From Phage NC-G, in sequence record MK310184: a DNA stretch of 64,000 nt; one strand, 5' to 3'. Of this stretch, positions 24,189-37,479 are shown one piece after another. The translations under genes and the position numbers were made by a program. The notes beneath the pieces are model-generated. The model was not told the origin of the DNA, ran no database searches, and worked only from the letters and a program-made list of their open reading frames with translations. Numbering within the stretch: position 1 is the first letter of the stretch; the number at the start of each line of letters is the position of its first letter.

Positions 24189-24629
24189 TTAACCTCGGTT
24201 CATAAAGGCATTAAAAATCTGGTCGTCAATTGAATAAACTGGAGCTTCCAGAATTTTCAACAGGCTATTTTTGATATACTTGCTAGGGATATCCATATTA
24301 ACGCAGTCGTTCAATTCGTTGTCAGGGAGGATATCTTTAAATTCGAATCCTTCAAATTCAACCTTGTCGGGAAAACCATCAGCGAAAAAATAAACCAATT
24401 GGTGCATTGTATTGCGCGAAAATAATTTAGACTTAACTGCAATAAGTTCTTGCCATTGGTTTAATTCTTTGTTAAGAAGTTTATGGGCAAATACAATCCT
24501 ATCATCGCTATCAACAATAAAATAACCCAGGTATTTATGGTCGTCGCTCCAAAACATCCTGTATGCTTGTGCATTTGGATTTTTACAACGAAGTTTTTTG
24601 ATAACCAAATTTCTGTTAATCTTATTCAC
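24189..24629 (-). CDS. hypothetical protein (146 aa)
   Basis: track ORF, co-oriented and tightly packed. Confidence 0.55.
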   Translation of the reverse strand: MNKINRNLVIKKLRCKNPNAQAYRMFWSDDHKYLGYFIVDSDDRIVFAHKLLNKELNQWQELIAVKSKLFSRNTMHQLVYFFADGFPDKVEFEGFEFKDILPDNELNDCVNMDIPSKYIKNSLLKILEAPVYSIDDQIFNAFMNRG

Positions 24630-24915
24630 CTGTTACCTCTTTAACGATATTTTTGTTATCGAAATTGGCATCACAGTACAGAACATAGTTATACTGCATA
24701 ACACCGCTAGAAGCCAATTGGTCAGATACTTCTTTAACCATATCAGGACGGTCGCGTTTAGTGATGTTCATGATATCAGCATAAATCTGATGTTCAACTG
24801 ATTCTTGGTCTGCAGTCATTGACCATTCACAAAGGTCTTTATCCAGTCCGGCTGTAACTGGAGCTGTACCACATGATGCTACTATAAGGATTGCTGCGAT
24901 TAATAACTTTTTCAT
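24622..24915 (-). CDS. periplasmic lipoprotein (97 aa), possibly spackle (Sp)-like
   Basis: track ORF trimmed to ATG 24915 (GAGGAG RBS); signal peptide with lipobox VASC; Sp assignment is recollection only. Confidence 0.5.
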   Translation of the reverse strand: MKKLLIAAILIVASCGTAPVTAGLDKDLCEWSMTADQESVEHQIYADIMNITKRDRPDMVKEVSDQLASSGVMQYNYVLYCDANFDNKNIVKEVTGE

Positions 24916-24976: not shown

Positions 24977-25273
24977 TTATTTTACTTTAGCGTAATCTAA
25001 AGTTACTAACTGTGATTCCATTATCAGACGACGTTGACGACGGAGAACCTCACCACCAACATAAGCACGAAAAGCTTTTTTGCACTGACGAATCTGGCGC
25101 TTAGTAGGACGAACAGTAAATTCGTAGAACTCTACAAAATCCATTTCGCCTTTAGTTTCCTGAGAAAGGACAAGTTCCCAGCGACTGTTAATACGATCTG
25201 CATAAATCTTATGCTTACCGAAAGACCTGTCCCAAAAGCCACTTTTAACAGGCTTCATAATTTGAATATTCAT
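24977..25273 (-). CDS. hypothetical protein (98 aa)
   Basis: track ORF trimmed to ATG 25273, 1 nt after upstream stop. Confidence 0.5.
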   Translation of the reverse strand: MNIQIMKPVKSGFWDRSFGKHKIYADRINSRWELVLSQETKGEMDFVEFYEFTVRPTKRQIRQCKKAFRAYVGGEVLRRQRRLIMESQLVTLDYAKVK

Positions 25274-25274
25274 T

Positions 25275-25415
25275 TTATTCCTCGTCTTCATGTTTATGAG
25301 CAATTTCTTCGAATTCACTGTCACAGTCTAAACAAGTCGCATTATCATACGCGTCAAAAACGGCTTCGTCTTCATAGACACTACAGCCGCACACTACACA
25401 TTCTACTTCTTCCAT
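25275..25415 (-). CDS. zinc-ribbon protein (46 aa)
   Basis: CVVCGC...CLDC motif; ATG abuts upstream stop; below track size cut-off. Confidence 0.4.
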   Translation of the reverse strand: MEEVECVVCGCSVYEDEAVFDAYDNATCLDCDSEFEEIAHKHEDEE

Positions 25416-25619
25416 TTAGATTTCCTCAATACGGGCATCATATTCAAAAACTTTATTGTCATTAACAAAGGCTTTCACCAGCGCATTATTCACTTCTGCA
25501 TACTGCACTGTAACCCATTCAATCATATTTTGGTCACTAACATCCAGCGCAGTTTCTTTGGTAAACATATTACCGTTTTCAAACCAACCAATAAATACTA
25601 CGATCTCTAATTTAAACAT
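25416..25619 (-). CDS. hypothetical protein (67 aa)
   Basis: track ORF, co-oriented and tightly packed. Confidence 0.5.
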   Translation of the reverse strand: MFKLEIVVFIGWFENGNMFTKETALDVSDQNMIEWVTVQYAEVNNALVKAFVNDNKVFEYDARIEEI

Positions 25620-26022: not shown

Positions 26023-27460
26023 AAAATTTTATAGATGCTGCCAAATCGTCCAAATCGCTTCTATTAACACGCGACTGGCGATTGACTTCGGCTTGGCGAT
26101 TCATTTCACCTGTAGCCTCACGAACGGTGTTCACAGGGCCTTGGTTAGAATCGTCTTCAACTTCATACCAACGCTGGTTTCCTTTCTTAACACCAATCTT
26201 AAATTTGTTGTAGTAGCTCTTATCACCATAACGAGATTTAAGCTGCTTAATCATCTGCATACCCATCTGGGCAAACTCTTCTGTCTCGACCACACCTAAC
26301 ATGAAGTCTGCAGTATGTGCAATACCAAAAGATTCAGCGATATCAGCCATATCGATTTCGGCAGCAACGTTTGCACCACGAGTAGTCTGGGCCGCCGTCC
26401 ACAACAATAATTTCTTCTCTACTGCAAGGCCACGTAGTTCTTCGGCAACCATCTTAATCAATCCGTAACTGTTTTCAGAGAAAACTTTCGTACGGGATGA
26501 AGCACAGATAGCCAAGTAGTCGACGATAACGACCTGTGGAACAAAGTTTTGTTTGAGCTTGTATTCGTTTAATAATGCACGGAATGTATCGGCATTAGCA
26601 CCACCGGTAGGATACTGTTTAATCTTTAAACGACCTAAAGTAGCAGTTGAACGCCACTTATCCATCTTAGCTTTATATTCAGGCCATGAGACGTGACCAT
26701 CATCGATATCATCCAGCGATACATCCAGAAGGTTAGCATCGATACGCTTAGCACATACTTCTTCTGCCATCTCCATGGAGATATAAAGAACATCGTAACC
26801 GGATTGAAGGTAATCAGCAGCCAATGAACATAGTCCAAGAGACTTACCTACGTTTGTTCCTGCCAACAATACGTTTTCAGTACCAAACTCAGCGCCACCC
26901 TTAGTAATCTTATTCAGAATATTAAGACGGAATGGAACCTTACGTGCTTTATCAGAATAACTTTTGAATCGTTCTTCATAGTCATCCATCCAGTCATGGC
27001 CTAATTCAGAATCGAAACAAATCGATAATGCATCACGCATGATATCCGGAATAGCACCGATACCTGGGAGTTTTCTATTTTGTTGCTCAACCGGAAGGTC
27101 GGCATTAGTTTGAATTTCAATAATTTTTGAAGTGGCATTATACATCGCTGCCTTCTGAACATATTTCTCTGTCTCTTTAACCAACCATTCTTGGTCTTCA
27201 GGGCCTGCATTCAGAGAATTTAAAAGCTCTTTAGCTCCTTGGTGTTCGACTTCTGAAAGGGTGCTGTTATCTAATGCAATACTCAAAGCATTTTTAGAAG
27301 GCACCGCATTATATTCATTGACATGTTTTTTGATTTCTTTGAAAAGGGTCTTTGCCGGGCCCTGGTCAAAATAAGAATCATTCATATAAGGCCAGACCTT
27401 AGTGAAATAATCACTATTGCCTAGCAGTTGAGCCAAAATAGTTTCTACCACTTCCACCAC
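26021..27460 (-). CDS. 41: replicative DNA helicase (DnaB-like) gp41
   Basis: 479 aa; Walker A GTNVGKS and DnaB-family C-terminal domain; synteny with 61/uvsX. Confidence 0.92.
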   Translation of the reverse strand: MVEVVETILAQLLGNSDYFTKVWPYMNDSYFDQGPAKTLFKEIKKHVNEYNAVPSKNALSIALDNSTLSEVEHQGAKELLNSLNAGPEDQEWLVKETEKYVQKAAMYNATSKIIEIQTNADLPVEQQNRKLPGIGAIPDIMRDALSICFDSELGHDWMDDYEERFKSYSDKARKVPFRLNILNKITKGGAEFGTENVLLAGTNVGKSLGLCSLAADYLQSGYDVLYISMEMAEEVCAKRIDANLLDVSLDDIDDGHVSWPEYKAKMDKWRSTATLGRLKIKQYPTGGANADTFRALLNEYKLKQNFVPQVVIVDYLAICASSRTKVFSENSYGLIKMVAEELRGLAVEKKLLLWTAAQTTRGANVAAEIDMADIAESFGIAHTADFMLGVVETEEFAQMGMQMIKQLKSRYGDKSYYNKFKIGVKKGNQRWYEVEDDSNQGPVNTVREATGEMNRQAEVNRQSRVNRSDLDDLAASIKF

Positions 27461-30730: not shown

Positions 30731-31263
30731 TTATTCACCTTATTTTCAATATATTCGTTCAGACGTTTTAATTCTACCATATCAACATTAAGCAAATTAT
30801 TATGGCCGTCATGATTTAAGATTTTAAACACGTTTTCAAAACATGTTTCGTATTGCCGGATAGTTAGGTTGAACTCATCTTTGGTTAATTTAATAAGGTC
30901 GTCTTCAAAGTCTTCATCTAATGGATTACGAGTTAAAATAACCTCGATAACATTAAATTCGGATTTAAACCCTTTCCAATCTTCCAGTTCTACATAAGGG
31001 TCCATTTCACCACGAAGGAATCCTGAGTAAACAATATTACTTGGATAACCGCGGTCAAGGATGTAGACGAAATTAGGGTCTAAAAACTTATACAGAGTTT
31101 CAACTAAGGCCTTATCGTTATCAGTTCCTAATGAAATACATTTACCATTAATCTTTTTAGGAAAATCAATAAGACGATATTTCTTATCGGATAACAGATT
31201 TTTAATTAAAGTAGACTTCCCGGAATTATCCGGGCCGTCTATAACAATGATTTTTGGATTCAT
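30727..31263 (-). CDS. P-loop kinase (nucleotide or sugar kinase family)
   Basis: 178 aa; Walker A IVIDGPDNSGKSTL; translationally coupled within cassette. Confidence 0.6.
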   Translation of the reverse strand: MNPKIIVIDGPDNSGKSTLIKNLLSDKKYRLIDFPKKINGKCISLGTDNDKALVETLYKFLDPNFVYILDRGYPSNIVYSGFLRGEMDPYVELEDWKGFKSEFNVIEVILTRNPLDEDFEDDLIKLTKDEFNLTIRQYETCFENVFKILNHDGHNNLLNVDMVELKRLNEYIENKVNK

Positions 31264-31643
31264 GGATGATAGGCCTTATAACTATCAAGAGTTCCTTCAC
31301 GAACCATTTCTTTAAAGTGGTCAGGACGGATTGCTCGGTCATCGATGATAAAAGTATAACTCGGCTTGTGTGTAAGCAAATTGTGGTATTTCAATCCAAT
31401 TTTTTCAAGGTTCTTAACCAATGCAGGAACTACTTCAACCAAGATTCGACCTGGGCCACATGAAGTCATGCCACGGGCGGTGAACAATGTAATCTCGTAC
31501 CCTTCATCATAAAGCTTATTAATCATGGACACCATTTCGGTGTCCGGTTTAAAGTTCTCATAATCACGGTCATGGTTCCAAATCGTGATTGTGTTATCGA
31601 TATCAAAACATAAATGTGGCTTATTTTCTACTCGATGCGACAT
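31260..31643 (-). CDS. HAD-superfamily phosphatase
   Basis: track ORF trimmed to ATG 31643 (TAATG coupling); motifs DIDNTIT, LFTARG, FIIDDR. Confidence 0.65.
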   Translation of the reverse strand: MSHRVENKPHLCFDIDNTITIWNHDRDYENFKPDTEMVSMINKLYDEGYEITLFTARGMTSCGPGRILVEVVPALVKNLEKIGLKYHNLLTHKPSYTFIIDDRAIRPDHFKEMVREGTLDSYKAYHP

Positions 31644-33316
31644 TAAATTTTCTTCCATTGTTTGTGGAGTTCAGTAGAACCTGTAGGTTTATATTTTACA
31701 CCAGTTTCCTGGTCAAGCAAAACCCACTTATCAGGACAACGAGTAATAATTTGAGCCGTAATAGGGTCACGAACTTCATCGACAAATTCACCAGTAATAA
31801 GCTTACGCTTACGAGGATGCCGCTTCAGCAGCACACTCAGTTGGTACAAACCGTTATAATAAGCACCTAGAGCTTTCAGAGGGTTATTCTTAAAGTAACC
31901 TGCCAGAGCCATCCAAATAACAGCAATCCAGAGCTTGTGCTTAAATGTGCACATAGGAATATCGTCTAAAGGCATAACCTTTTCAATATCAACGAACACA
32001 CGAGTCCCATTACGAGTTAAGCCACCCCATAGAGGGTCTGAGTTAAATTTGTCATAGCCATCGATAGAATAAAGCACCTTAGCTTCATCATAAATCGCAG
32101 GGCCTTTAGAACTATTACCGAAATAACCACGTGGGTCGATGATTTTAATATCACCTTCATCTGACAGCATAATATTACTGTAGTGTGGGTCGCCATGAAT
32201 AAGTTGGTACGGCTCTTTATGTTCAGACAGAATTTCTAATGCATGGCGGAGAAGTTTTTCAGGGTCGCCTACCTTGAAGTCATTAACGTGGGTAATGCCT
32301 TGTGGAGCAAAGCCTTCAATCAATCCGGCAATAGAAGCATTACGAATAAGGACCTTGTCCAATACTTCTTTCTTAACATCGGAATACCATTGCTCATCGG
32401 ACGGGTTATCGATAGTTCCACCGAATGAACGTAATGCACTAATGACCTTATAAACCATGAGGACTTTAGTTTCTTTAGACATAAACCGGTAGGCATCTGC
32501 CATGGTACGACCAAAGATACGTTCCATTTTAATGAATTCGCCTGGAGAAAAGTCTACAATGCTAGGAACGAATTCAGAATCAATAGAATTATACCAATTG
32601 ATTTCTTTAGATTGAATTTCTTTACCTAATTCGTTAGTTGGTACTTTAATGGCCAGATTCTCGGTGAACTCTAATTTATTAAATTCACGGTTAATTTCAG
32701 ATTCTTCATGGGCTTTAGCCAGTTTCAATTTGTCACCGACATCAACTACAAAGTCCAGTTTACGTTCAGTCAAATAGACCATTGAATCCAGGTTATCAGC
32801 AAGGTCTTCGCCATAATTAGAACGGTCGAAACCTGTCCAATTGGCTACCTGATACAAACCAACTACGCCACCACCCGTACCAATTTCACGTAAGTACGGT
32901 TCTTCAAATGTAAAGCGACAGTCAGTTCCATAGGTATAACAGTAGTCGTTACCCCATTCAACTTTATGACCAATAGGAATGATGTCACACCAGTTAAACA
33001 AGACATTATGGCCAATGATATCTTCGGCAATGCAATCAATAGCATGAGCTGAACCATTAGCAACGTCAACGTTACGAATAGTGAATTTAGGCTTATCACC
33101 AGTAATCATGTTAATGGATTTAATATAGCCTTTAACGAGGTCGTTAAATTTGCTGTGAATAACCAGAATAATTTCATCTGATTGGTTACTATACAAATCA
33201 TACAAATGCTTTAATACCGTATGTTGTTTGTAGTTAACCAATACCTTCGGGATTTCGTTAGTAATTGGATACAACCGTGAGCCAAGACCCGCGCCTAAAA
33301 TAACAACCTTTTTCAT
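31643..33316 (-). CDS. bifunctional sugar-1-phosphate nucleotidyltransferase / sugar kinase (APH-like)
   Basis: track ORF trimmed to ATG 33316 (GAGGAA RBS); N-terminal ILGAGLGSRL; C-terminal HGDPHYSN and IIDPRG. Confidence 0.7.
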   Translation of the reverse strand: MKKVVILGAGLGSRLYPITNEIPKVLVNYKQHTVLKHLYDLYSNQSDEIILVIHSKFNDLVKGYIKSINMITGDKPKFTIRNVDVANGSAHAIDCIAEDIIGHNVLFNWCDIIPIGHKVEWGNDYCYTYGTDCRFTFEEPYLREIGTGGGVVGLYQVANWTGFDRSNYGEDLADNLDSMVYLTERKLDFVVDVGDKLKLAKAHEESEINREFNKLEFTENLAIKVPTNELGKEIQSKEINWYNSIDSEFVPSIVDFSPGEFIKMERIFGRTMADAYRFMSKETKVLMVYKVISALRSFGGTIDNPSDEQWYSDVKKEVLDKVLIRNASIAGLIEGFAPQGITHVNDFKVGDPEKLLRHALEILSEHKEPYQLIHGDPHYSNIMLSDEGDIKIIDPRGYFGNSSKGPAIYDEAKVLYSIDGYDKFNSDPLWGGLTRNGTRVFVDIEKVMPLDDIPMCTFKHKLWIAVIWMALAGYFKNNPLKALGAYYNGLYQLSVLLKRHPRKRKLITGEFVDEVRDPITAQIITRCPDKWVLLDQETGVKYKPTGSTELHKQWKKI

Positions 33317-33375
33317 TATCTGTTCCTCAAGTGAATGTAGGTACATTATACACTATTTTTAATAAATTCTATTGC

Positions 33376-33876
33376 TTAAATCTTATCTTTACCGTATTCC
33401 ATACACTGTTCTACTGCAGCAGGCACTTTGGTCTTAAGCTTGTTGATTTGTTTCTTATAATCACGCGCCTTATCGAAGCTCTCGGTTTCGAGCATTTCGT
33501 AATAACGAGCCTCATGAATAGAAACCTGTAAATTGATATGGTTTACACACATCGCATACAGTTTCTGCTTTTTGTACAAATCATCTTGGCGCTTCATTTC
33601 TGCCTGGTGTTTGGCTAGTACCGCTTCACGCTTAGACTCTTGTTCACGTTGGAATTCGATTTCCCTTTGAGCATATTTTGCGCAGTTATTACCGCATTGA
33701 TTATTAGCTCGGGTATACACAAGTCCAGAACCGGCACGGAATTTCATTTCGCCATCGAATTGTTTCTGTTCGGCTGCAATACGAGCTTTACCAACTTCAT
33801 CAGCTGAAACTGCATCACCGTATTGGACCGCGCAACCTGATAGGAGCATACTCATTGCGATAATTAACTTTTTCAT
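33376..33876 (-). CDS. putative lipoprotein (166 aa)
   Basis: signal peptide with lipobox LSGC; GAGGA RBS; charged coiled-coil-like C-terminal half. Confidence 0.6.
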   Translation of the reverse strand: MKKLIIAMSMLLSGCAVQYGDAVSADEVGKARIAAEQKQFDGEMKFRAGSGLVYTRANNQCGNNCAKYAQREIEFQREQESKREAVLAKHQAEMKRQDDLYKKQKLYAMCVNHINLQVSIHEARYYEMLETESFDKARDYKKQINKLKTKVPAAVEQCMEYGKDKI

Positions 33877-33883
33877 AATATCC

Positions 33884-34021
33884 TCAATTAAAACAGTTAT
33901 ACTTAATTTGTGCTATAAGAATAATCCATCCCATGATTAATGTTGGAATCATTGGAGGAATTGCCACTGCCCAATAAATGGTAAAGGCAGCCATTATAAG
34001 AAATAAAATAATTATCTTCAT
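33884..34021 (-). CDS. small membrane protein (45 aa)
   Basis: ATG overlaps upstream stop (ATGA); hydrophobic; below track size cut-off. Confidence 0.35.
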   Translation of the reverse strand: MKIIILFLIMAAFTIYWAVAIPPMIPTLIMGWIILIAQIKYNCFN

Positions 34022-34254
34022 TGTTTAACGATAATGATTTGTGCGTTTGATTTACGTTCAGCGACGATAGCCCAGATTAAAGCCACTACCCAACCAATCA
34101 TCGTCCATCCTAACAGGAGATTAAGGAAGAAGATTCCGACATTGCTACGAGTGCCTCGCAGAAGAGCCAGAATCCATGGTAAAAAGTAACCAATGAACAT
34201 AATAACCAGAGAACCGAATCCTAAAACACCAGCACTAACGATTAAAGCTTCCAT
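34018..34254 (-). CDS. small membrane protein at imm position (78 aa)
   Basis: track ORF; two TM helices; first gene after early promoter; position matches T4 imm. Confidence 0.5.
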   Translation of the reverse strand: MEALIVSAGVLGFGSLVIMFIGYFLPWILALLRGTRSNVGIFFLNLLLGWTMIGWVVALIWAIVAERKSNAQIIIVKQ

Positions 34255-34284
34255 TATAATTTCCTCATGTAGTTGATAGGAAGG

Positions 34285-34314
34285 ATAATACCACGTTCCC
34301 TGTGGTATGTAAAC
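34285..34314 (-). promoter_or_regulatory. early promoter inside 3' end of gene 43
   Basis: -35 GTTTAC 34309-34314, 18-bp spacer, -10 TATTAT 34285-34290, conserved cctatcaac box. Confidence 0.5.
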
Positions 34315-34316
34315 AC

Positions 34317-37028
34317 TTAAAAGTCGAACATGTCAAATAATGTTGCTTTTTTCTCGTAGTCGATTTTAGCAGACTCGGTAAAACCGGTCAGAGGTTTGAT
34401 AAAGGTCTTTTGGAACAGTACGTTGTAGTCCATCCAACGGAGGACTTGGTCACGAATCTGAATCGGGAGTTCAATACCTGACGGCCATGCCATACAAGCT
34501 TCACCGAACGGGTTGCCTTCTTTAAGTGGCAGTACATATACCTTCTCACCATCAACGATACGAGGCATAGTCAAATCACCAGCAGAAGCACGCATGTAAG
34601 CTAAGCAACCTTTGATGTGGTACGGACATTTAGAACCAGGGAAACCACCTTCATTATATTTCTCAATGTTGTTAGCACTGGATACTGCAGCAATGCTTAC
34701 ATAGTCTAATTCGTTAAATTCCTTATTAAACTGTTTGAAATATTCTTGCAAAGAGGCCTCGCCTTCTTGAAGCATACGACGGATGCATTCTTTCAGTGCT
34801 TTCTGAACCGCTTTAGGTGTACTTGATTTCTGAGTTTCGAGACCCATGATTTTCAAGTGTGGTTCGGCATAACGAGTACCTTCCATGTCCCAAACGTTCA
34901 GTGCATAACGTTTCTTGCCTGTCCAGAATCCACCAAGACCTTTAGAACCAAGTGGAGGACCAGCGATAGCTTCTCGGTCCATGAACATCAAGTGCTGTTT
35001 ATTGTTCATGTATTCACACATCTCACGGAAGCCTGCATCAATAGCAGGTTCCATACGTTCACGTGCAAATTTATCTAAGAAGTCAACCCAGTGGTTAGTA
35101 TCACGGAATTTGTCTTCGCCTACTTTATTGATGATTGCGTCAGCCTTAACATAAATGGAGTCGGTATCACCATAGAGCACGAACTTCTGGTTTTCGGTCT
35201 TACATACGCTATTCAGATATTCGTTAACCTTACGTTCAATCCATTGGAGGGCCATTTGACCAAACAATGTGATTGCAGTTGCGTTCCTGAGGTCATAGTA
35301 ACGGAACCATACGTTACCAAGTGCACCATAAAGGGAGTTGATAAGCAACTTACGGTTAATCTGAGCAGTCATACCTGCGACTTCAGTACGTTCGGCTTTG
35401 AACAACATTTCTTTTAAAGAAGCTTCTGACAATTTTTTAATCTGGGCTTTGACTTCGTCAGAGAAGTCGAAACGATAATCAACATCCAGTGGACTATCAT
35501 CAGACGGATTAGGATTTTCTAATGCTTCTTTAATTAACTCGCCATTACGTTGAGCTGCAAGCATATAACCTTTATGTTCTTTACGTTGTAAGAACACCTT
35601 CGTGATTTCTGTAGGAATAACACCATCACGGTCTTTATAGTACATCATGCCGTTAGGAGAGCAACTGTAGGTGTCGCTAGGACGCGGAGCAGTTCCGGCA
35701 ATATATTCATGTATAGGTGCGTTGGCGAATGTGCCTGCGATGGTCTCTGGGCTTATATTCACTTGTCGAATGATACTCGGGTACAGAGATGTAAGGTCGA
35801 AACTCATTACATATTTGTACGCGTTAGGAATCGGTTCCTTAACGAAAGCACCTGGATAAGGTTGAACCGCGTGCGATTTGGCCTGAGGAATAACTTTACC
35901 CTGTTCTTTAAGGCTATTAAAGATAATAGCGTCCCAAGTCTTAATTGGGCTGAACACCGACTGAATCTGCATCTTGGCATAGTAACCCATGTCCAGACTA
36001 AGAAGAATGAACTGGCGCTTCATATCAATCTGCACAACACGATATACGTCGATAATGTTATAGGAAATATATCGTTGGTGGTTCGTCTCACGTAACTTGG
36101 AGATAGGACCATCATATTTCAACTTACCTACTTTCAATTCATATTCAGAAACATAATCCAGAGAATAAGAAGGCTGGTTGGTAAAGCTGAATTTTTTATA
36201 AAGGTCGATATAGTCCAGAACAGAAATACCGAACAGTGTAATAATTTCACGAGCACCGTACATGTTCTCGATAACTTTAACACGAGTCTTACGATGCGGG
36301 CTTAATCGCTTAGCAGTGTTCTCACCAAACAGATTTTTCAGACGGTTATAAACGTATGGCACGTCAAATGATTCAACGTTCCAGCCGGTCAAAATCACAG
36401 GAGTTTTCTGTTGCCAGAAATTCAGATACTCGAGCATCATTTCTTCTTCGGAATTAAACGGAAGATAAACGATTTTGTCAATGATTTCCTGTGGAACTTC
36501 GTCACCACCTTCGTCTTGGAGTTTCTCAGCGATTTTAATCGACCACTCTTCGACCGTACCATAAGGTGAAACTAAAAGGTCAAATACATAGAATTTATCA
36601 TCAATCGAGTCGTAGTGAGTAATGGCATCGATAGGATGTTTAGCCTGGGCAGGTTCAGGGAATCCATCAGGAGATGTTACCTCGATGTCGAAGTTAGCAA
36701 TACGAATCTTGGAAGAATCATACTTGATTTCTTTACGATAGGTATCAGACAAATAGGCTAATTTATAGTCGTCCATACCAAGGGCTTCAAGTCCCATATC
36801 GTCCATGCGCTTCATCCATTGAGAAGCATCACGCATTGAATCGAATTCTTTCTTAACACAACCCTTACCATAGATGTCAATGTATTTTACGGCTTGCTCT
36901 GGGTTAGCATGCATAAACATTGTAGGCTTGTAAGGAACTTCACGACTACGTTCGTTACCATTTTTATCGATGTAACGTTCGAGAATATTATCACCGATTT
37001 GTTCGACTGTCAAATAGAATTCTTGCAT
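34317..37028 (-). CDS. 43: DNA polymerase gp43 (family B)
   Basis: track ORF trimmed to ATG 37028 (AAAGGA RBS); 903 aa; exo and pol motifs (FDIE, YGDTDS); collinear with recalled RB69/T4 gp43. Confidence 0.95.
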   Translation of the reverse strand: MQEFYLTVEQIGDNILERYIDKNGNERSREVPYKPTMFMHANPEQAVKYIDIYGKGCVKKEFDSMRDASQWMKRMDDMGLEALGMDDYKLAYLSDTYRKEIKYDSSKIRIANFDIEVTSPDGFPEPAQAKHPIDAITHYDSIDDKFYVFDLLVSPYGTVEEWSIKIAEKLQDEGGDEVPQEIIDKIVYLPFNSEEEMMLEYLNFWQQKTPVILTGWNVESFDVPYVYNRLKNLFGENTAKRLSPHRKTRVKVIENMYGAREIITLFGISVLDYIDLYKKFSFTNQPSYSLDYVSEYELKVGKLKYDGPISKLRETNHQRYISYNIIDVYRVVQIDMKRQFILLSLDMGYYAKMQIQSVFSPIKTWDAIIFNSLKEQGKVIPQAKSHAVQPYPGAFVKEPIPNAYKYVMSFDLTSLYPSIIRQVNISPETIAGTFANAPIHEYIAGTAPRPSDTYSCSPNGMMYYKDRDGVIPTEITKVFLQRKEHKGYMLAAQRNGELIKEALENPNPSDDSPLDVDYRFDFSDEVKAQIKKLSEASLKEMLFKAERTEVAGMTAQINRKLLINSLYGALGNVWFRYYDLRNATAITLFGQMALQWIERKVNEYLNSVCKTENQKFVLYGDTDSIYVKADAIINKVGEDKFRDTNHWVDFLDKFARERMEPAIDAGFREMCEYMNNKQHLMFMDREAIAGPPLGSKGLGGFWTGKKRYALNVWDMEGTRYAEPHLKIMGLETQKSSTPKAVQKALKECIRRMLQEGEASLQEYFKQFNKEFNELDYVSIAAVSSANNIEKYNEGGFPGSKCPYHIKGCLAYMRASAGDLTMPRIVDGEKVYVLPLKEGNPFGEACMAWPSGIELPIQIRDQVLRWMDYNVLFQKTFIKPLTGFTESAKIDYEKKATLFDMFDF

Positions 37029-37085
37029 TTCATTTCCTTTATAGACGAGTGATTGTCTTTTGTTTGTTGATGAATCATTATACTC

Positions 37086-37106
37086 CAAAAAGGGACCGAA
37101 GTCCCT
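37086..37106 (-). terminator. terminator-like UUCG hairpin between regA and gene 43
   Basis: AGGGAC-UUCG-GUCCCU (37091-37106) followed by UUUUUGG; -10-like TATAAT directly downstream. Confidence 0.5.
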
Positions 37107-37116
37107 CTGCTTAAAC

Positions 37117-37479
37117 TTAATTACCAATCGTATACTTAGACAGCAGTTCCCAGTCATTTTTCTGTTTAAAGGAAATGACGCGGAAGTTGTTGGTGATTTC
37201 GAACAATTCGGAATCGTCTACAATATCAATAAGTCCCCAATCCTTAAGAAGCTGGGCGATAGAATCGCGACGTTGGTAGTCTTCACCATCGATATCTACC
37301 TGGCGTCCGTCCATACGCAACATTTCTTTAAAGTGGACAATATAATATCGTCCTTGCTTTTGCAAAATGTGACAGGACTGATATAGTTTCTTTTCTTTAT
37401 TATTAGCGATACCCATACGAGTCAGGGTCTCTTTCACTTTTAGGAAGTCTTCGGGTTGCTTCAGAGTAATTTCAATCAT
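37117..37479 (-). CDS. regA: RegA translational repressor
   Basis: 120 aa; near-identical blocks to recalled T4 RegA (MIEITLK.PEDFLKVKETLTRMGIAN...). Confidence 0.9.
   Translation of the reverse strand: MIEITLKQPEDFLKVKETLTRMGIANNKEKKLYQSCHILQKQGRYYIVHFKEMLRMDGRQVDIDGEDYQRRDSIAQLLKDWGLIDIVDDSELFEITNNFRVISFKQKNDWELLSKYTIGN

What the first reader, a model, noticed from the sequence alone, without database searches (positions are those of the whole stretch)
33376..34254. Lipoprotein and two small membrane proteins in the imm slot
Between the modification cassette and gene 43, where T4 has imm and imm.1, this phage encodes a 78-aa two-helix membrane protein with its own early promoter, a 45-aa membrane peptide and a 166-aa lipoprotein (lipobox LSGC) with a charged, coiled-coil-like periplasmic domain. 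These are candidates for an immunity/superinfection exclusion system different from T4 Imm/Sp.
Basis: inference. Interest (0 to 1): 0.4.

Follow-up and report, generated by a model that had tools for sequence, protein, structure and literature searches.

The report
Ordinary T4-type imm operon, rearranged
The three small envelope genes are real, but they are this JS98-like phage's copies of genes T4 already has (imm, the tiny gene 42.1 and an Imm.1-type lipoprotein) in a different order, so this is not a new exclusion system.

Summary
The window is a Dhakavirus (JS98-like T-even phage, about 98% DNA identity). All three ORFs exist on the minus strand exactly as described. They follow a promoter-like site that keeps its position after gene 43 in several genera.

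The 78-aa protein is the orthologue of T4 Imm (Pfam PF14373, 65 bits against a cutoff of 27.9; 43% identical to T4 Imm) and is already annotated as imm in JS98. The window also carries a Spackle orthologue at 24625-24915. The claim "different from T4 Imm/Sp" therefore fails.

The 45-aa peptide is gp42.1 (phrog_3610). T4 has it too, unannotated in RefSeq, between imm and gene 42, with the same ATGA start/stop overlap.

The 166-aa lipoprotein belongs to phrog_1754, the same PHROG as T4 Imm.1. In S16 and CkP1 its relatives occupy T4's imm.1 slot. Independent evidence for homology to Imm.1 is weak beyond the N-terminus.

The lipoprotein family is confined to T4-like phages (18 clusters among 1.84 billion representatives). 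It evolves faster than its neighbours. It is predicted to be outer-membrane anchored with a roughly 70-residue helix, and it has no informative fold match. Its function, and that of gp42.1, is unknown.

Serratia phage CBH8 keeps both genes without a detectable Imm, so neither can strictly depend on Imm. Interest is low.

The parts
34285..34313 (-). Early-promoter-like site (GTTTACA, 17-nt spacer, TGgTATTAT) directly after the gene 43 stop codon. Its spacer contains a 7-bp inverted repeat, ATACCAC/GTGGTAT.
   Evidence: Consensus scan gives 10 of 12 matches with a TG. The position is conserved in several Tevenvirinae genera. The hairpin is analysed. Promoter activity was not tested.
34018..34254 (-). 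imm: the orthologue of T4 Imm, a two-helix inner-membrane protein that gives immunity to superinfection.
   Evidence: PF14373 at E 5.1e-18, 65.1 bits against a cutoff of 27.9. phrog_1039 at E 3e-32. Identity is 43% to T4 Imm and 50% to RB69 Imm by tblastn, and 100% to the annotated JS98 imm. There are two hydrophobic spans, and a GAGGA Shine-Dalgarno sequence lies 7 nt upstream.
33884..34021 (-). Gene 42.1 homologue: a 45-aa hydrophobic peptide whose start overlaps the imm stop codon (ATGA).
   Evidence: phrog_3610 at E 1.1e-21. The unannotated T4 ORF at NC_000866 26227-26376 matches the same PHROG at E 1.2e-25. The gene is named 42.1 in the VR7 record. tblastn finds it in 520 phage records. 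Conserved motifs are IYW, PxM(I/V)PT, GW and Q.(K/R)Y(N/E)C(F/I)N at the C-terminus, and the ATGA overlap recurs in six phages.
33376..33876 (-). 166-aa lipoprotein (lipobox LSGC, Cys15) of phrog_1754, the broad Imm.1 group. Predicted parts are a tether, a short helix, a beta-hairpin (GSGLVY), a QCGNNC motif, a helix of about 70 residues and a C-terminal helical bundle. Cys109 and Cys158 are invariant in the family alignment.
   Evidence: phrog_1754 at E 4.7e-52 over the full length, and T4 Imm.1 matches the same PHROG at E 6.1e-43. The AlphaFold2 model has mean pLDDT 79.7. Only 18 clusters were found among 1.84 billion representatives. A GAGGA Shine-Dalgarno sequence overlaps the 42.1 stop codon.
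24625..24915 (-). Spackle (sp) orthologue elsewhere in the window. It is context showing that the phage has the standard T-even exclusion pair.
   Evidence: tblastn with RB69 Sp gives 73% identity over 97 aa at E 3e-49.

Best explanation
This is the phage's version of the T4 imm region, a tightly packed early operon (promoter, imm, 42.1, lipoprotein) that reads on into the DNA-modification cassette.

Shown here:
- The 78-aa gene is the Imm orthologue.
- The 45-aa gene is the gp42.1 orthologue. Its ATGA overlap with imm implies translational coupling, which is an inference.
- The 166-aa gene is a lipoprotein of phrog_1754, the PHROG that also holds T4 Imm.1. Relative to T4 (43, imm.1, imm, 42.1, 42) it has moved from upstream to downstream of imm (43, imm, 42.1, lipoprotein).

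From established knowledge of T4, not tested here: Imm sits in the inner membrane, stops the DNA of a superinfecting T-even phage from crossing it, and works alongside periplasmic Sp, which inhibits the gp5 tail lysozyme.

Inferred:
- The lipoprotein is processed by Lgt and LspA. Because residue +2 is Ala rather than Asp, it is sent by the Lol pathway to the inner leaflet of the outer membrane, where it projects a long helical, disulfide-stabilised domain into the periplasm early in infection.
- Its early expression, its restriction to phages and its fast divergence best fit an accessory envelope factor acting at a phage-phage or phage-host interface. Exclusion or envelope protection is the likeliest such role.
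- It does not strictly depend on Imm.
- gp42.1 is a small inner-membrane peptide of unknown role.
For: Identity of the phage and the existing annotation:
- About 98% DNA identity to JS98 and its relatives, where the 78-aa gene is annotated imm.

Imm:
- PF14373 and phrog_1039 matches; 43-50% identity to T4 and RB69 Imm.

Sp:
- An orthologue is present in the window.

gp42.1:
- phrog_3610 matches both the window peptide and the T4 ORF.
- The T4 ORF and its ATGA overlap were read directly.
- VR7 names the gene 42.1 and RB69 notes the similarity to the T4 42-imm region.

Lipoprotein:
- The same PHROG as T4 Imm.1.
- T4 Imm.1 has its own lipobox, LAGC, and shares the motif G-x-V-V-N-x-x-x-V-G-K just after the lipid-attachment Cys.
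- Relatives in S16 and CkP1 occupy T4's imm.1 slot: 43, lipoprotein, imm, 42.
- No second Imm.1-like gene is in the window.
- It is the fastest-diverging gene of the block: 48% identity to VR7 against 78% for gp43 and 73% for Imm.
- The family is restricted to T4-like phages.

Independence from Imm:
- CBH8 has the lipoprotein, 42.1 and Sp, but an Imm HMM finds nothing in the 143 kb examined.
Against: Homology of the 166-aa protein to T4 Imm.1 is not secure.
- Pairwise BLASTP is not significant (E 6.4).
- The protein does not match Pfam DUF5481 at E up to 1, whereas T4 Imm.1 matches it at 5e-72.
- hhalign aligns only 31 N-terminal columns, signal peptide included (96%). With signal peptides removed it aligns only 15 columns (P 0.0017, probability 15%).
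- A profile of the window protein and 11 close relatives did not reach T4 Imm.1 in the 1.84-billion library.

No experiment or fold match says what the lipoprotein or gp42.1 does. Outer-membrane targeting and the disulfide pairing are inferred from sequence rules and from the pattern of Cys presence and absence only.
Confidence: 0.82

Rival explanations
1. The three proteins work together as one exclusion device that spans the envelope. Inner-membrane Imm and gp42.1 would contact the long helical domain of the outer-membrane lipoprotein and block the path of an incoming tail tube or its DNA.
For: The genes form one tight operon with coupled starts. The lipoprotein or Imm.1 lies next to, or one gene from, imm in four arrangements: T4, S16/CkP1, RB69 and JS98/VR7. 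In RB69 the pair imm.1-imm sits together at a different site, next to sp. The predicted helix of about 70 residues would be roughly 100 Å long, which is an inference.
Against: CBH8 keeps the lipoprotein and 42.1 but has no detectable Imm. In PEi20, IME523, CBH8 and the metagenome contig L009 the lipoprotein is followed by a sugar isomerase gene, not by imm. In RB69 42.1 stays behind when imm is elsewhere. S16 and CkP1 have no annotated 42.1 between imm and 42, which overlap each other in those records. From my own memory of Lu and Henning 1989 (J Virol 63:3472), not checked here, plasmid-borne T4 imm alone confers immunity. No interaction was tested.
Confidence: 0.12
2. The lipoprotein is an independent outer-membrane-anchored exclusion or protection factor. 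It might mask a receptor or porin from the periplasmic side (as T5 Llp and Cor do for FhuA) or protect against lysis from without. It would act separately from Imm and Sp.
For: It has a lipobox and no Asp at +2 in any family member. It is usually the first gene behind the early promoter. It diverges fastest among its neighbours. It is found only in phages and occurs without Imm.
Against: Similarity to Cor, Llp or other exclusion lipoproteins does not extend beyond the signal peptide (phrog_1119 at E 0.014 over residues 1-18 only). There is no PADLOC hit, no target is known, and there is no phenotype.
Confidence: 0.25
3. The lipoprotein is a lysis protein, an o-spanin or u-spanin.
For: It is an outer-membrane-type lipoprotein with periplasmic cysteines.
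Against: [quoted passage not shown] The protein has no C-terminal transmembrane segment. It lies in an early operon and has no adjacent i-spanin partner.
Confidence: 0.02

Closest known systems
T4 Imm (Pfam PF14373 Imm_superinfect; phrog_1039)
   Same: The length is about 80 aa with two hydrophobic helices and the conserved YxLPWxxALxRG...GW core. It is an early gene near gene 43, 43% identical to T4 Imm, and is annotated as imm in JS98.
   Different: It lies directly after gene 43, with no lipoprotein gene in between. The exclusion phenotype has not been tested for this phage.
T4 gp42.1 / RB69 ORF054c (phrog_3610)
   Same: It has the same size, the same conserved motifs, a C-terminal Cys and an ATGA overlap with the gene upstream.
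   Different: Here a lipoprotein gene follows it, rather than gene 42 or a nucleotidyltransferase gene. The function is unknown in every phage. The gene is unannotated in T4 RefSeq and annotated too short in JS98 and RB69.
T4 Imm.1 (Pfam DUF5481; phrog_1754)
   Same: Both are lipoproteins with a non-Asp residue at +2 and share the GxVVNxxxVGK motif after the lipid-attachment Cys. Both have two C-terminal cysteines in a helical region and belong to the same PHROG. Relatives of the window protein sit in the T4 imm.1 slot in S16 and CkP1.
   Different: The window protein is 166 aa against 125 aa and has a GSGLVY hairpin, a QCGNNC motif and a long charged helix that T4 Imm.1 lacks. It does not match DUF5481, and homology of the mature domain is not significant by BLASTP or hhalign. 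It lies downstream of imm, not upstream.
T5 Llp and Cor (phi80/N15) exclusion lipoproteins
   Same: These are phage-encoded outer-membrane lipoproteins, and Llp is made early in infection (from my own knowledge). They are a possible functional analogy.
   Different: Sequence similarity does not extend beyond the signal peptide. Those proteins are much smaller and have a known target, FhuA. No target is known here.

Membership tests
Imm_superinfect (PF14373) / T4 Imm | Profile match above Pfam's gathering score | tested here: met
   65.1 bits against a cutoff of 27.9, E 5.1e-18, covering model positions 2-42 of 42. phrog_1039 at E 3e-32.
Imm_superinfect (PF14373) / T4 Imm | Small protein (about 80 aa) with two membrane-spanning helices | tested here: met
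   78 aa, with hydrophobic spans at 2-33 and 39-67.
Imm_superinfect (PF14373) / T4 Imm | Blocks DNA entry of superinfecting T-even phage | not testable with these tools
   This needs an infection assay.
gp42.1 (phrog_3610) | Profile match and conserved C-terminal motif | tested here: met
   E 1.1e-21 over the full length. The alignment with T4, VR7, RB69 and IME523 shows PxM(I/V)PT, GW and KY(N/E)C(F/I)N.
gp42.1 (phrog_3610) | Start codon overlapping the stop codon of the upstream gene (ATGA) | tested here: met
   Window 34018-34021, and the same overlap in JS98, VR7, T4, RB69 and IME523.
T4 Imm.1 in the strict sense (Pfam DUF5481, PF17578) | Profile match above the gathering score | tested here: not met
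   No DUF5481 hit at E up to 1 for the window protein. T4 Imm.1 scores 239 bits.
phrog_1754 (lipoproteins downstream of gene 43, including T4 Imm.1) | Full-length profile match | tested here: met
   E 4.7e-52, residues 1-163 on model positions 2-147 of 148. T4 Imm.1 gives E 6.1e-43 on positions 2-146.
phrog_1754 (lipoproteins downstream of gene 43, including T4 Imm.1) | Independent evidence that the mature domains of the two subfamilies are homologous | tested here: inconclusive
   hhalign gives 96% but only over 31 N-terminal columns. Without signal peptides it aligns 15 columns at probability 15%. BLASTP gives E 6.4. Shared position in S16 and CkP1 supports homology.
Bacterial-type lipoprotein (Lgt/LspA substrate, Lol sorting) | Lipobox [LVI][ASTVI][GAS]C after a basic n-region and a hydrophobic h-region | tested here: met
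   MKKLIIAMSMLLSGC. G14 and C15 are at least 90% conserved in 26 relatives.
Bacterial-type lipoprotein (Lgt/LspA substrate, Lol sorting) | Actual lipidation and outer-membrane location | not testable with these tools
   Residue +2 is Ala, and no family member has Asp there. By the +2 rule this predicts the outer membrane, which is an inference.
Two-component or unimolecular spanin | Partner i-spanin or a C-terminal transmembrane segment | tested here: not met
   There is no C-terminal transmembrane segment and no adjacent i-spanin gene. JS98 is listed in the T4 PseT.3 and PseT.2 spanin families.
Cor/Llp-type exclusion lipoproteins | Sequence match beyond the signal peptide | tested here: not met
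   phrog_1119 at E 0.014, residues 1-18 only.

The most novel reading that the evidence does not exclude
The phrog_1754 lipoproteins (T4 Imm.1 and this divergent JS98-type form) could be a third, so far uncharacterised envelope-level exclusion or protection factor of T-even phages. It would be an outer-membrane-anchored, periplasm-reaching helical protein made from the first early transcript after gene 43. The ubiquitous but often unannotated microprotein gp42.1 could be another unstudied membrane player.
Probability: 0.2. Interest if true: 0.5.

Novelty: already known. Interest (0 to 1): 0.15.

Why it matters
As filed, the finding adds little: imm is already annotated in the near-identical JS98 genome, and the phage also has sp. 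The modest residual value is that two conserved early envelope genes of T-even phages remain functionally blank even in T4. These are the Imm.1-type lipoprotein and the 45-49-aa gp42.1. gp42.1 is missing from the T4 RefSeq annotation and is annotated too short in JS98 and RB69. Simple knockout and expression experiments in T4 could fill in both.

Tried and rejected
2. Word-indexed homologue searches were shallow: 11 hits for the window lipoprotein and 3 near-identical hits for T4 Imm.1. The second did not help build a diverse Imm.1 profile.
3. NCBIfam and PADLOC gave nothing meaningful. The Pfam MTBP_mid hit (16 bits against a cutoff of 25) was dismissed as coiled-coil noise.
4. Literature searches found no functional work. 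'imm.1' returned one paper that only lists the gene, DUF5481 returned none, and Lu and Henning 1989 is not held.
5. RNAalifold on the promoter-spacer hairpin failed because MAFFT misaligned the short sequences. It was replaced by per-sequence folding.
6. The spanin reading was rejected.
7. The idea that the lipoprotein needs Imm was rejected after the CBH8 scan. That scan left 100-128 kb of the genome unexamined, which by T4 gene order holds late structural genes.

Full report
**What is there**

The region 33376-34254 holds three back-to-back ORFs on the minus strand:
- 34018-34254, 78 aa.
- 33884-34021, 45 aa. Its ATG overlaps the stop codon of the 78-aa ORF as ATGA.
- 33376-33876, 166 aa, starting MKKLIIAMSMLLSGC.

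Gene 43 (DNA polymerase) ends at 34317, just upstream. A 567-aa ORF of the modification cassette starts 29 nt downstream. GAGGA Shine-Dalgarno sequences precede the first and third ORFs.

A promoter-like site, GTTTACA-17-TATTAT with an upstream TG, sits at 34313-34285. The scan found no more such sites than shuffled sequence gives. This one, however, keeps its place directly after the gene 43 stop codon in JS98, VR7, S16, CkP1, CBH8, L009 (a metagenome contig) and T4. No terminator-like site was found in 33000-34700.

**Which phage**

The stretch is 95-98% identical to JS98, JS10 and other Dhakavirus genomes. In all, 51 records cover at least 80% of the 1,021-base query. In JS98 the three genes are orf43 (hypothetical), orf44 (similar to RB69 orf054c) and imm.

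**The 78-aa protein is Imm**

- It matches Pfam PF14373 (Imm_superinfect) at 65.1 bits against a cutoff of 27.9, and phrog_1039 ('immunity to superinfection') at E 3e-32.
- By tblastn it is 43% identical to T4 Imm and 50% identical to RB69 Imm.
- It has two hydrophobic spans.
- The window also encodes a Spackle orthologue at 24625-24915, 73% identical to RB69 Sp.

This phage therefore has the standard T-even Imm and Sp pair (their roles are as described in PMC7677548). The claim of a system 'different from T4 Imm/Sp' does not hold.

**The 45-aa peptide is gp42.1**

- It matches phrog_3610 at E 1.1e-21.
- tblastn finds it in 520 phage records, including T4 at NC_000866 26230-26319, where nothing is annotated.
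- Reading T4 directly shows a 49-aa ORF (record 26227-26376) between imm and gene 42. It also overlaps the imm stop codon as ATGA and matches phrog_3610 at E 1.2e-25.
- The VR7 record calls the gene 42.1, 'similar to T4 gp42.1'.
- The ATGA overlap is kept whatever gene lies upstream: imm in the window, JS98, VR7 and T4, and a sugar isomerase-like gene in RB69 and IME523.
- The full-length form is 45-49 aa, so the 36-aa annotations in JS98 and RB69 are probably too short.

**The 166-aa lipoprotein**

Its sequence family:
- It matches phrog_1754 (function unknown) at E 4.7e-52 over the full length.
- T4 imm.1 turns out to encode a lipoprotein too (MKIAILVIALGLAGC). It matches the same PHROG at E 6.1e-43 and defines Pfam DUF5481.

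Its link to T4 Imm.1 is weaker than that suggests:
- BLASTP between the two gives E 6.4.
- The window protein does not hit DUF5481.
- hhalign of a 26-sequence alignment against T4 and RB69 Imm.1 aligns only the first 31 columns (96%).
- With signal peptides removed, only the GxVVNxxxVGK motif aligns (15 columns, P 0.0017, probability 15%).

Position speaks for common origin. By all-vs-all BLASTP of mature chains, S16 gp27 and the CkP1 lipoprotein group with the window protein. Both occupy T4's imm.1 slot: 43, lipoprotein, imm, 42. The window has no second Imm.1-like gene.

The lipoprotein is also the fastest-diverging gene of the block:

| Compared with | gp43 identity | Imm identity | Lipoprotein identity |
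|---|---|---|---|
| VR7 | 78% | 73% | 48% |
| S16 | 62% | 68% | 32% |
| T4 | 61% | 46% | 25% |

Divergence beyond detection from T4 Imm.1 is therefore plausible. I rate true homology at about two in three.

**Distribution and gene order**

A profile search of 1.84 billion representative proteins found only 18 clusters, all 89-192 aa. tblastn finds the family in T4-like phages of Escherichia, Salmonella, Enterobacter, Serratia, Edwardsiella, Kosakonia, Erwinia and Pectobacterium.

Gene orders seen:

| Phage(s) | Order |
|---|---|
| T4 | 43, imm.1, imm, 42.1, 42 |
| S16, CkP1 | 43, lipoprotein, imm, 42 |
| Window, JS98, VR7 | 43, imm, 42.1, lipoprotein |
| PEi20, IME523, CBH8, contig L009 | 43, lipoprotein, sugar isomerase, 42.1 (an uncalled gap in L009), nucleotidyltransferase |
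| RB69 | imm.1, imm, sp at another site; 42.1 left between the isomerase and transferase genes |

In Serratia phage CBH8, an Imm HMM found nothing in 1-100,000 or 128,000-171,175. The lipoprotein, 42.1 and Sp are all present there. The lipoprotein and gp42.1 are therefore often near imm but do not depend on it.

**Predicted structure**

With the 26-sequence alignment, AlphaFold2 gives mean pLDDT 79.7. The predicted parts are:
- a low-confidence tether (residues 16-24);
- helix 25-39;
- a beta-hairpin at 42-56, which carries the conserved G-(S/T)-G-L-x-Y;
- a helix at 62-131;
- two helices (134-149 and 151-162) packing back on the long helix.

Cys109 and Cys158 are invariant in the alignment, where Cys109 is listed as column C110. 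Cys61 and Cys65 (QCGNNC) are present or absent together: both are missing in P0019, P0026, S16 and CkP1. This suggests C61-C65 and C109-C158 disulfides, which is an inference.

No family member has Asp at +2, so outer-membrane sorting is predicted by the +2 rule of Lol sorting (established knowledge; an inference here). Fold searches returned only the protein's own family or generic helical bundles.

**Mechanism**

Known from T4: Imm blocks DNA entry at the inner membrane and Sp inhibits the gp5 lysozyme.

My best reading for the lipoprotein is an accessory, outer-membrane-anchored periplasmic factor made very early, acting at a phage-phage or phage-host interface. A joint trans-envelope device with Imm is possible but is weakened by the CBH8 result and by the variable gene orders. 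A spanin role is excluded, because JS98 is listed in the T4 PseT.3 and PseT.2 spanin families (PMC6139136) and the protein has no C-terminal membrane segment.

**Verdict**

The locus is the known T4-type imm region in a rearranged order, already annotated in JS98. Interest is low. The residual value lies in two conserved but unstudied envelope genes.

Noticed in passing
L002 5228-5377 (-), which is NC_000866.4 26227-26376: T4 RefSeq has no feature for a 49-aa ORF (gp42.1) between imm and gene 42. The ORF overlaps the imm stop codon as ATGA, matches phrog_3610 at E 1.2e-25 and is conserved in 520 phage records. JS98 orf44 and RB69 ORF054c are annotated as 36 aa, but the conserved ATGA-overlapping start gives 45-47 aa.
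   Followed up: yes
window 34285-34313 (-) and the equivalent sites in L003, L005-L009 and L013: The spacer of the conserved promoter after gene 43 contains a 6-9 bp inverted repeat. Its sequence differs between genera but stays complementary: ATACCAC/GTGGTAT here, ACGGCAA/TTGCCGT in VR7, ACATCC/GGATGT in S16 and ATCCAC/GTGGAT in CkP1. Fold energies are -7.3 to -12.5 kcal/mol against about -3.3 for shuffles. T4 lacks it. It could be a 3' stem-loop of the gene 43 mRNA embedded in the promoter.
   Followed up: partly
window 24625-24915 (-): A Spackle (sp) orthologue, 73% identical to RB69 Sp. Homologues of 61.4 and dmd lie at about 25067-25619. Unlike RB69, no imm.1 or imm lies between 61.4 and sp here.
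   Followed up: partly
L014, L015 and L016 (Serratia phage CBH8, MF036691.1): No Imm homologue was detected by HMM in 143 of 171 kb, although Sp, gp42.1 and the lipoprotein are present. This Winklervirus may lack Imm altogether.
   Followed up: partly
L002 5637-6014 (-), T4 imm.1: The RefSeq product name 'iduronate sulfatase' for T4 Imm.1 looks spurious. The protein is a 125-aa lipoprotein (lipobox LAGC) of Pfam DUF5481.
   Followed up: partly
window 31260-33346 (-): Downstream of the lipoprotein gene lie a 567-aa ORF and a 132-aa ORF. In JS98 they are annotated as similar to RB69 orf052c and orf051c, and their relatives in IME523 and L009 carry nucleotidyltransferase annotations. The operon appears to read straight into it, with a 29-nt gap and no terminator-like site.
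   Followed up: no
window 34317-37157 (-): The mechanical ORF for gene 43 is 946 aa because of an upstream in-frame ATG. The JS98 annotation (2712 nt) and the homology imply the real start is at MQEFYLTVEQ.
   Followed up: no
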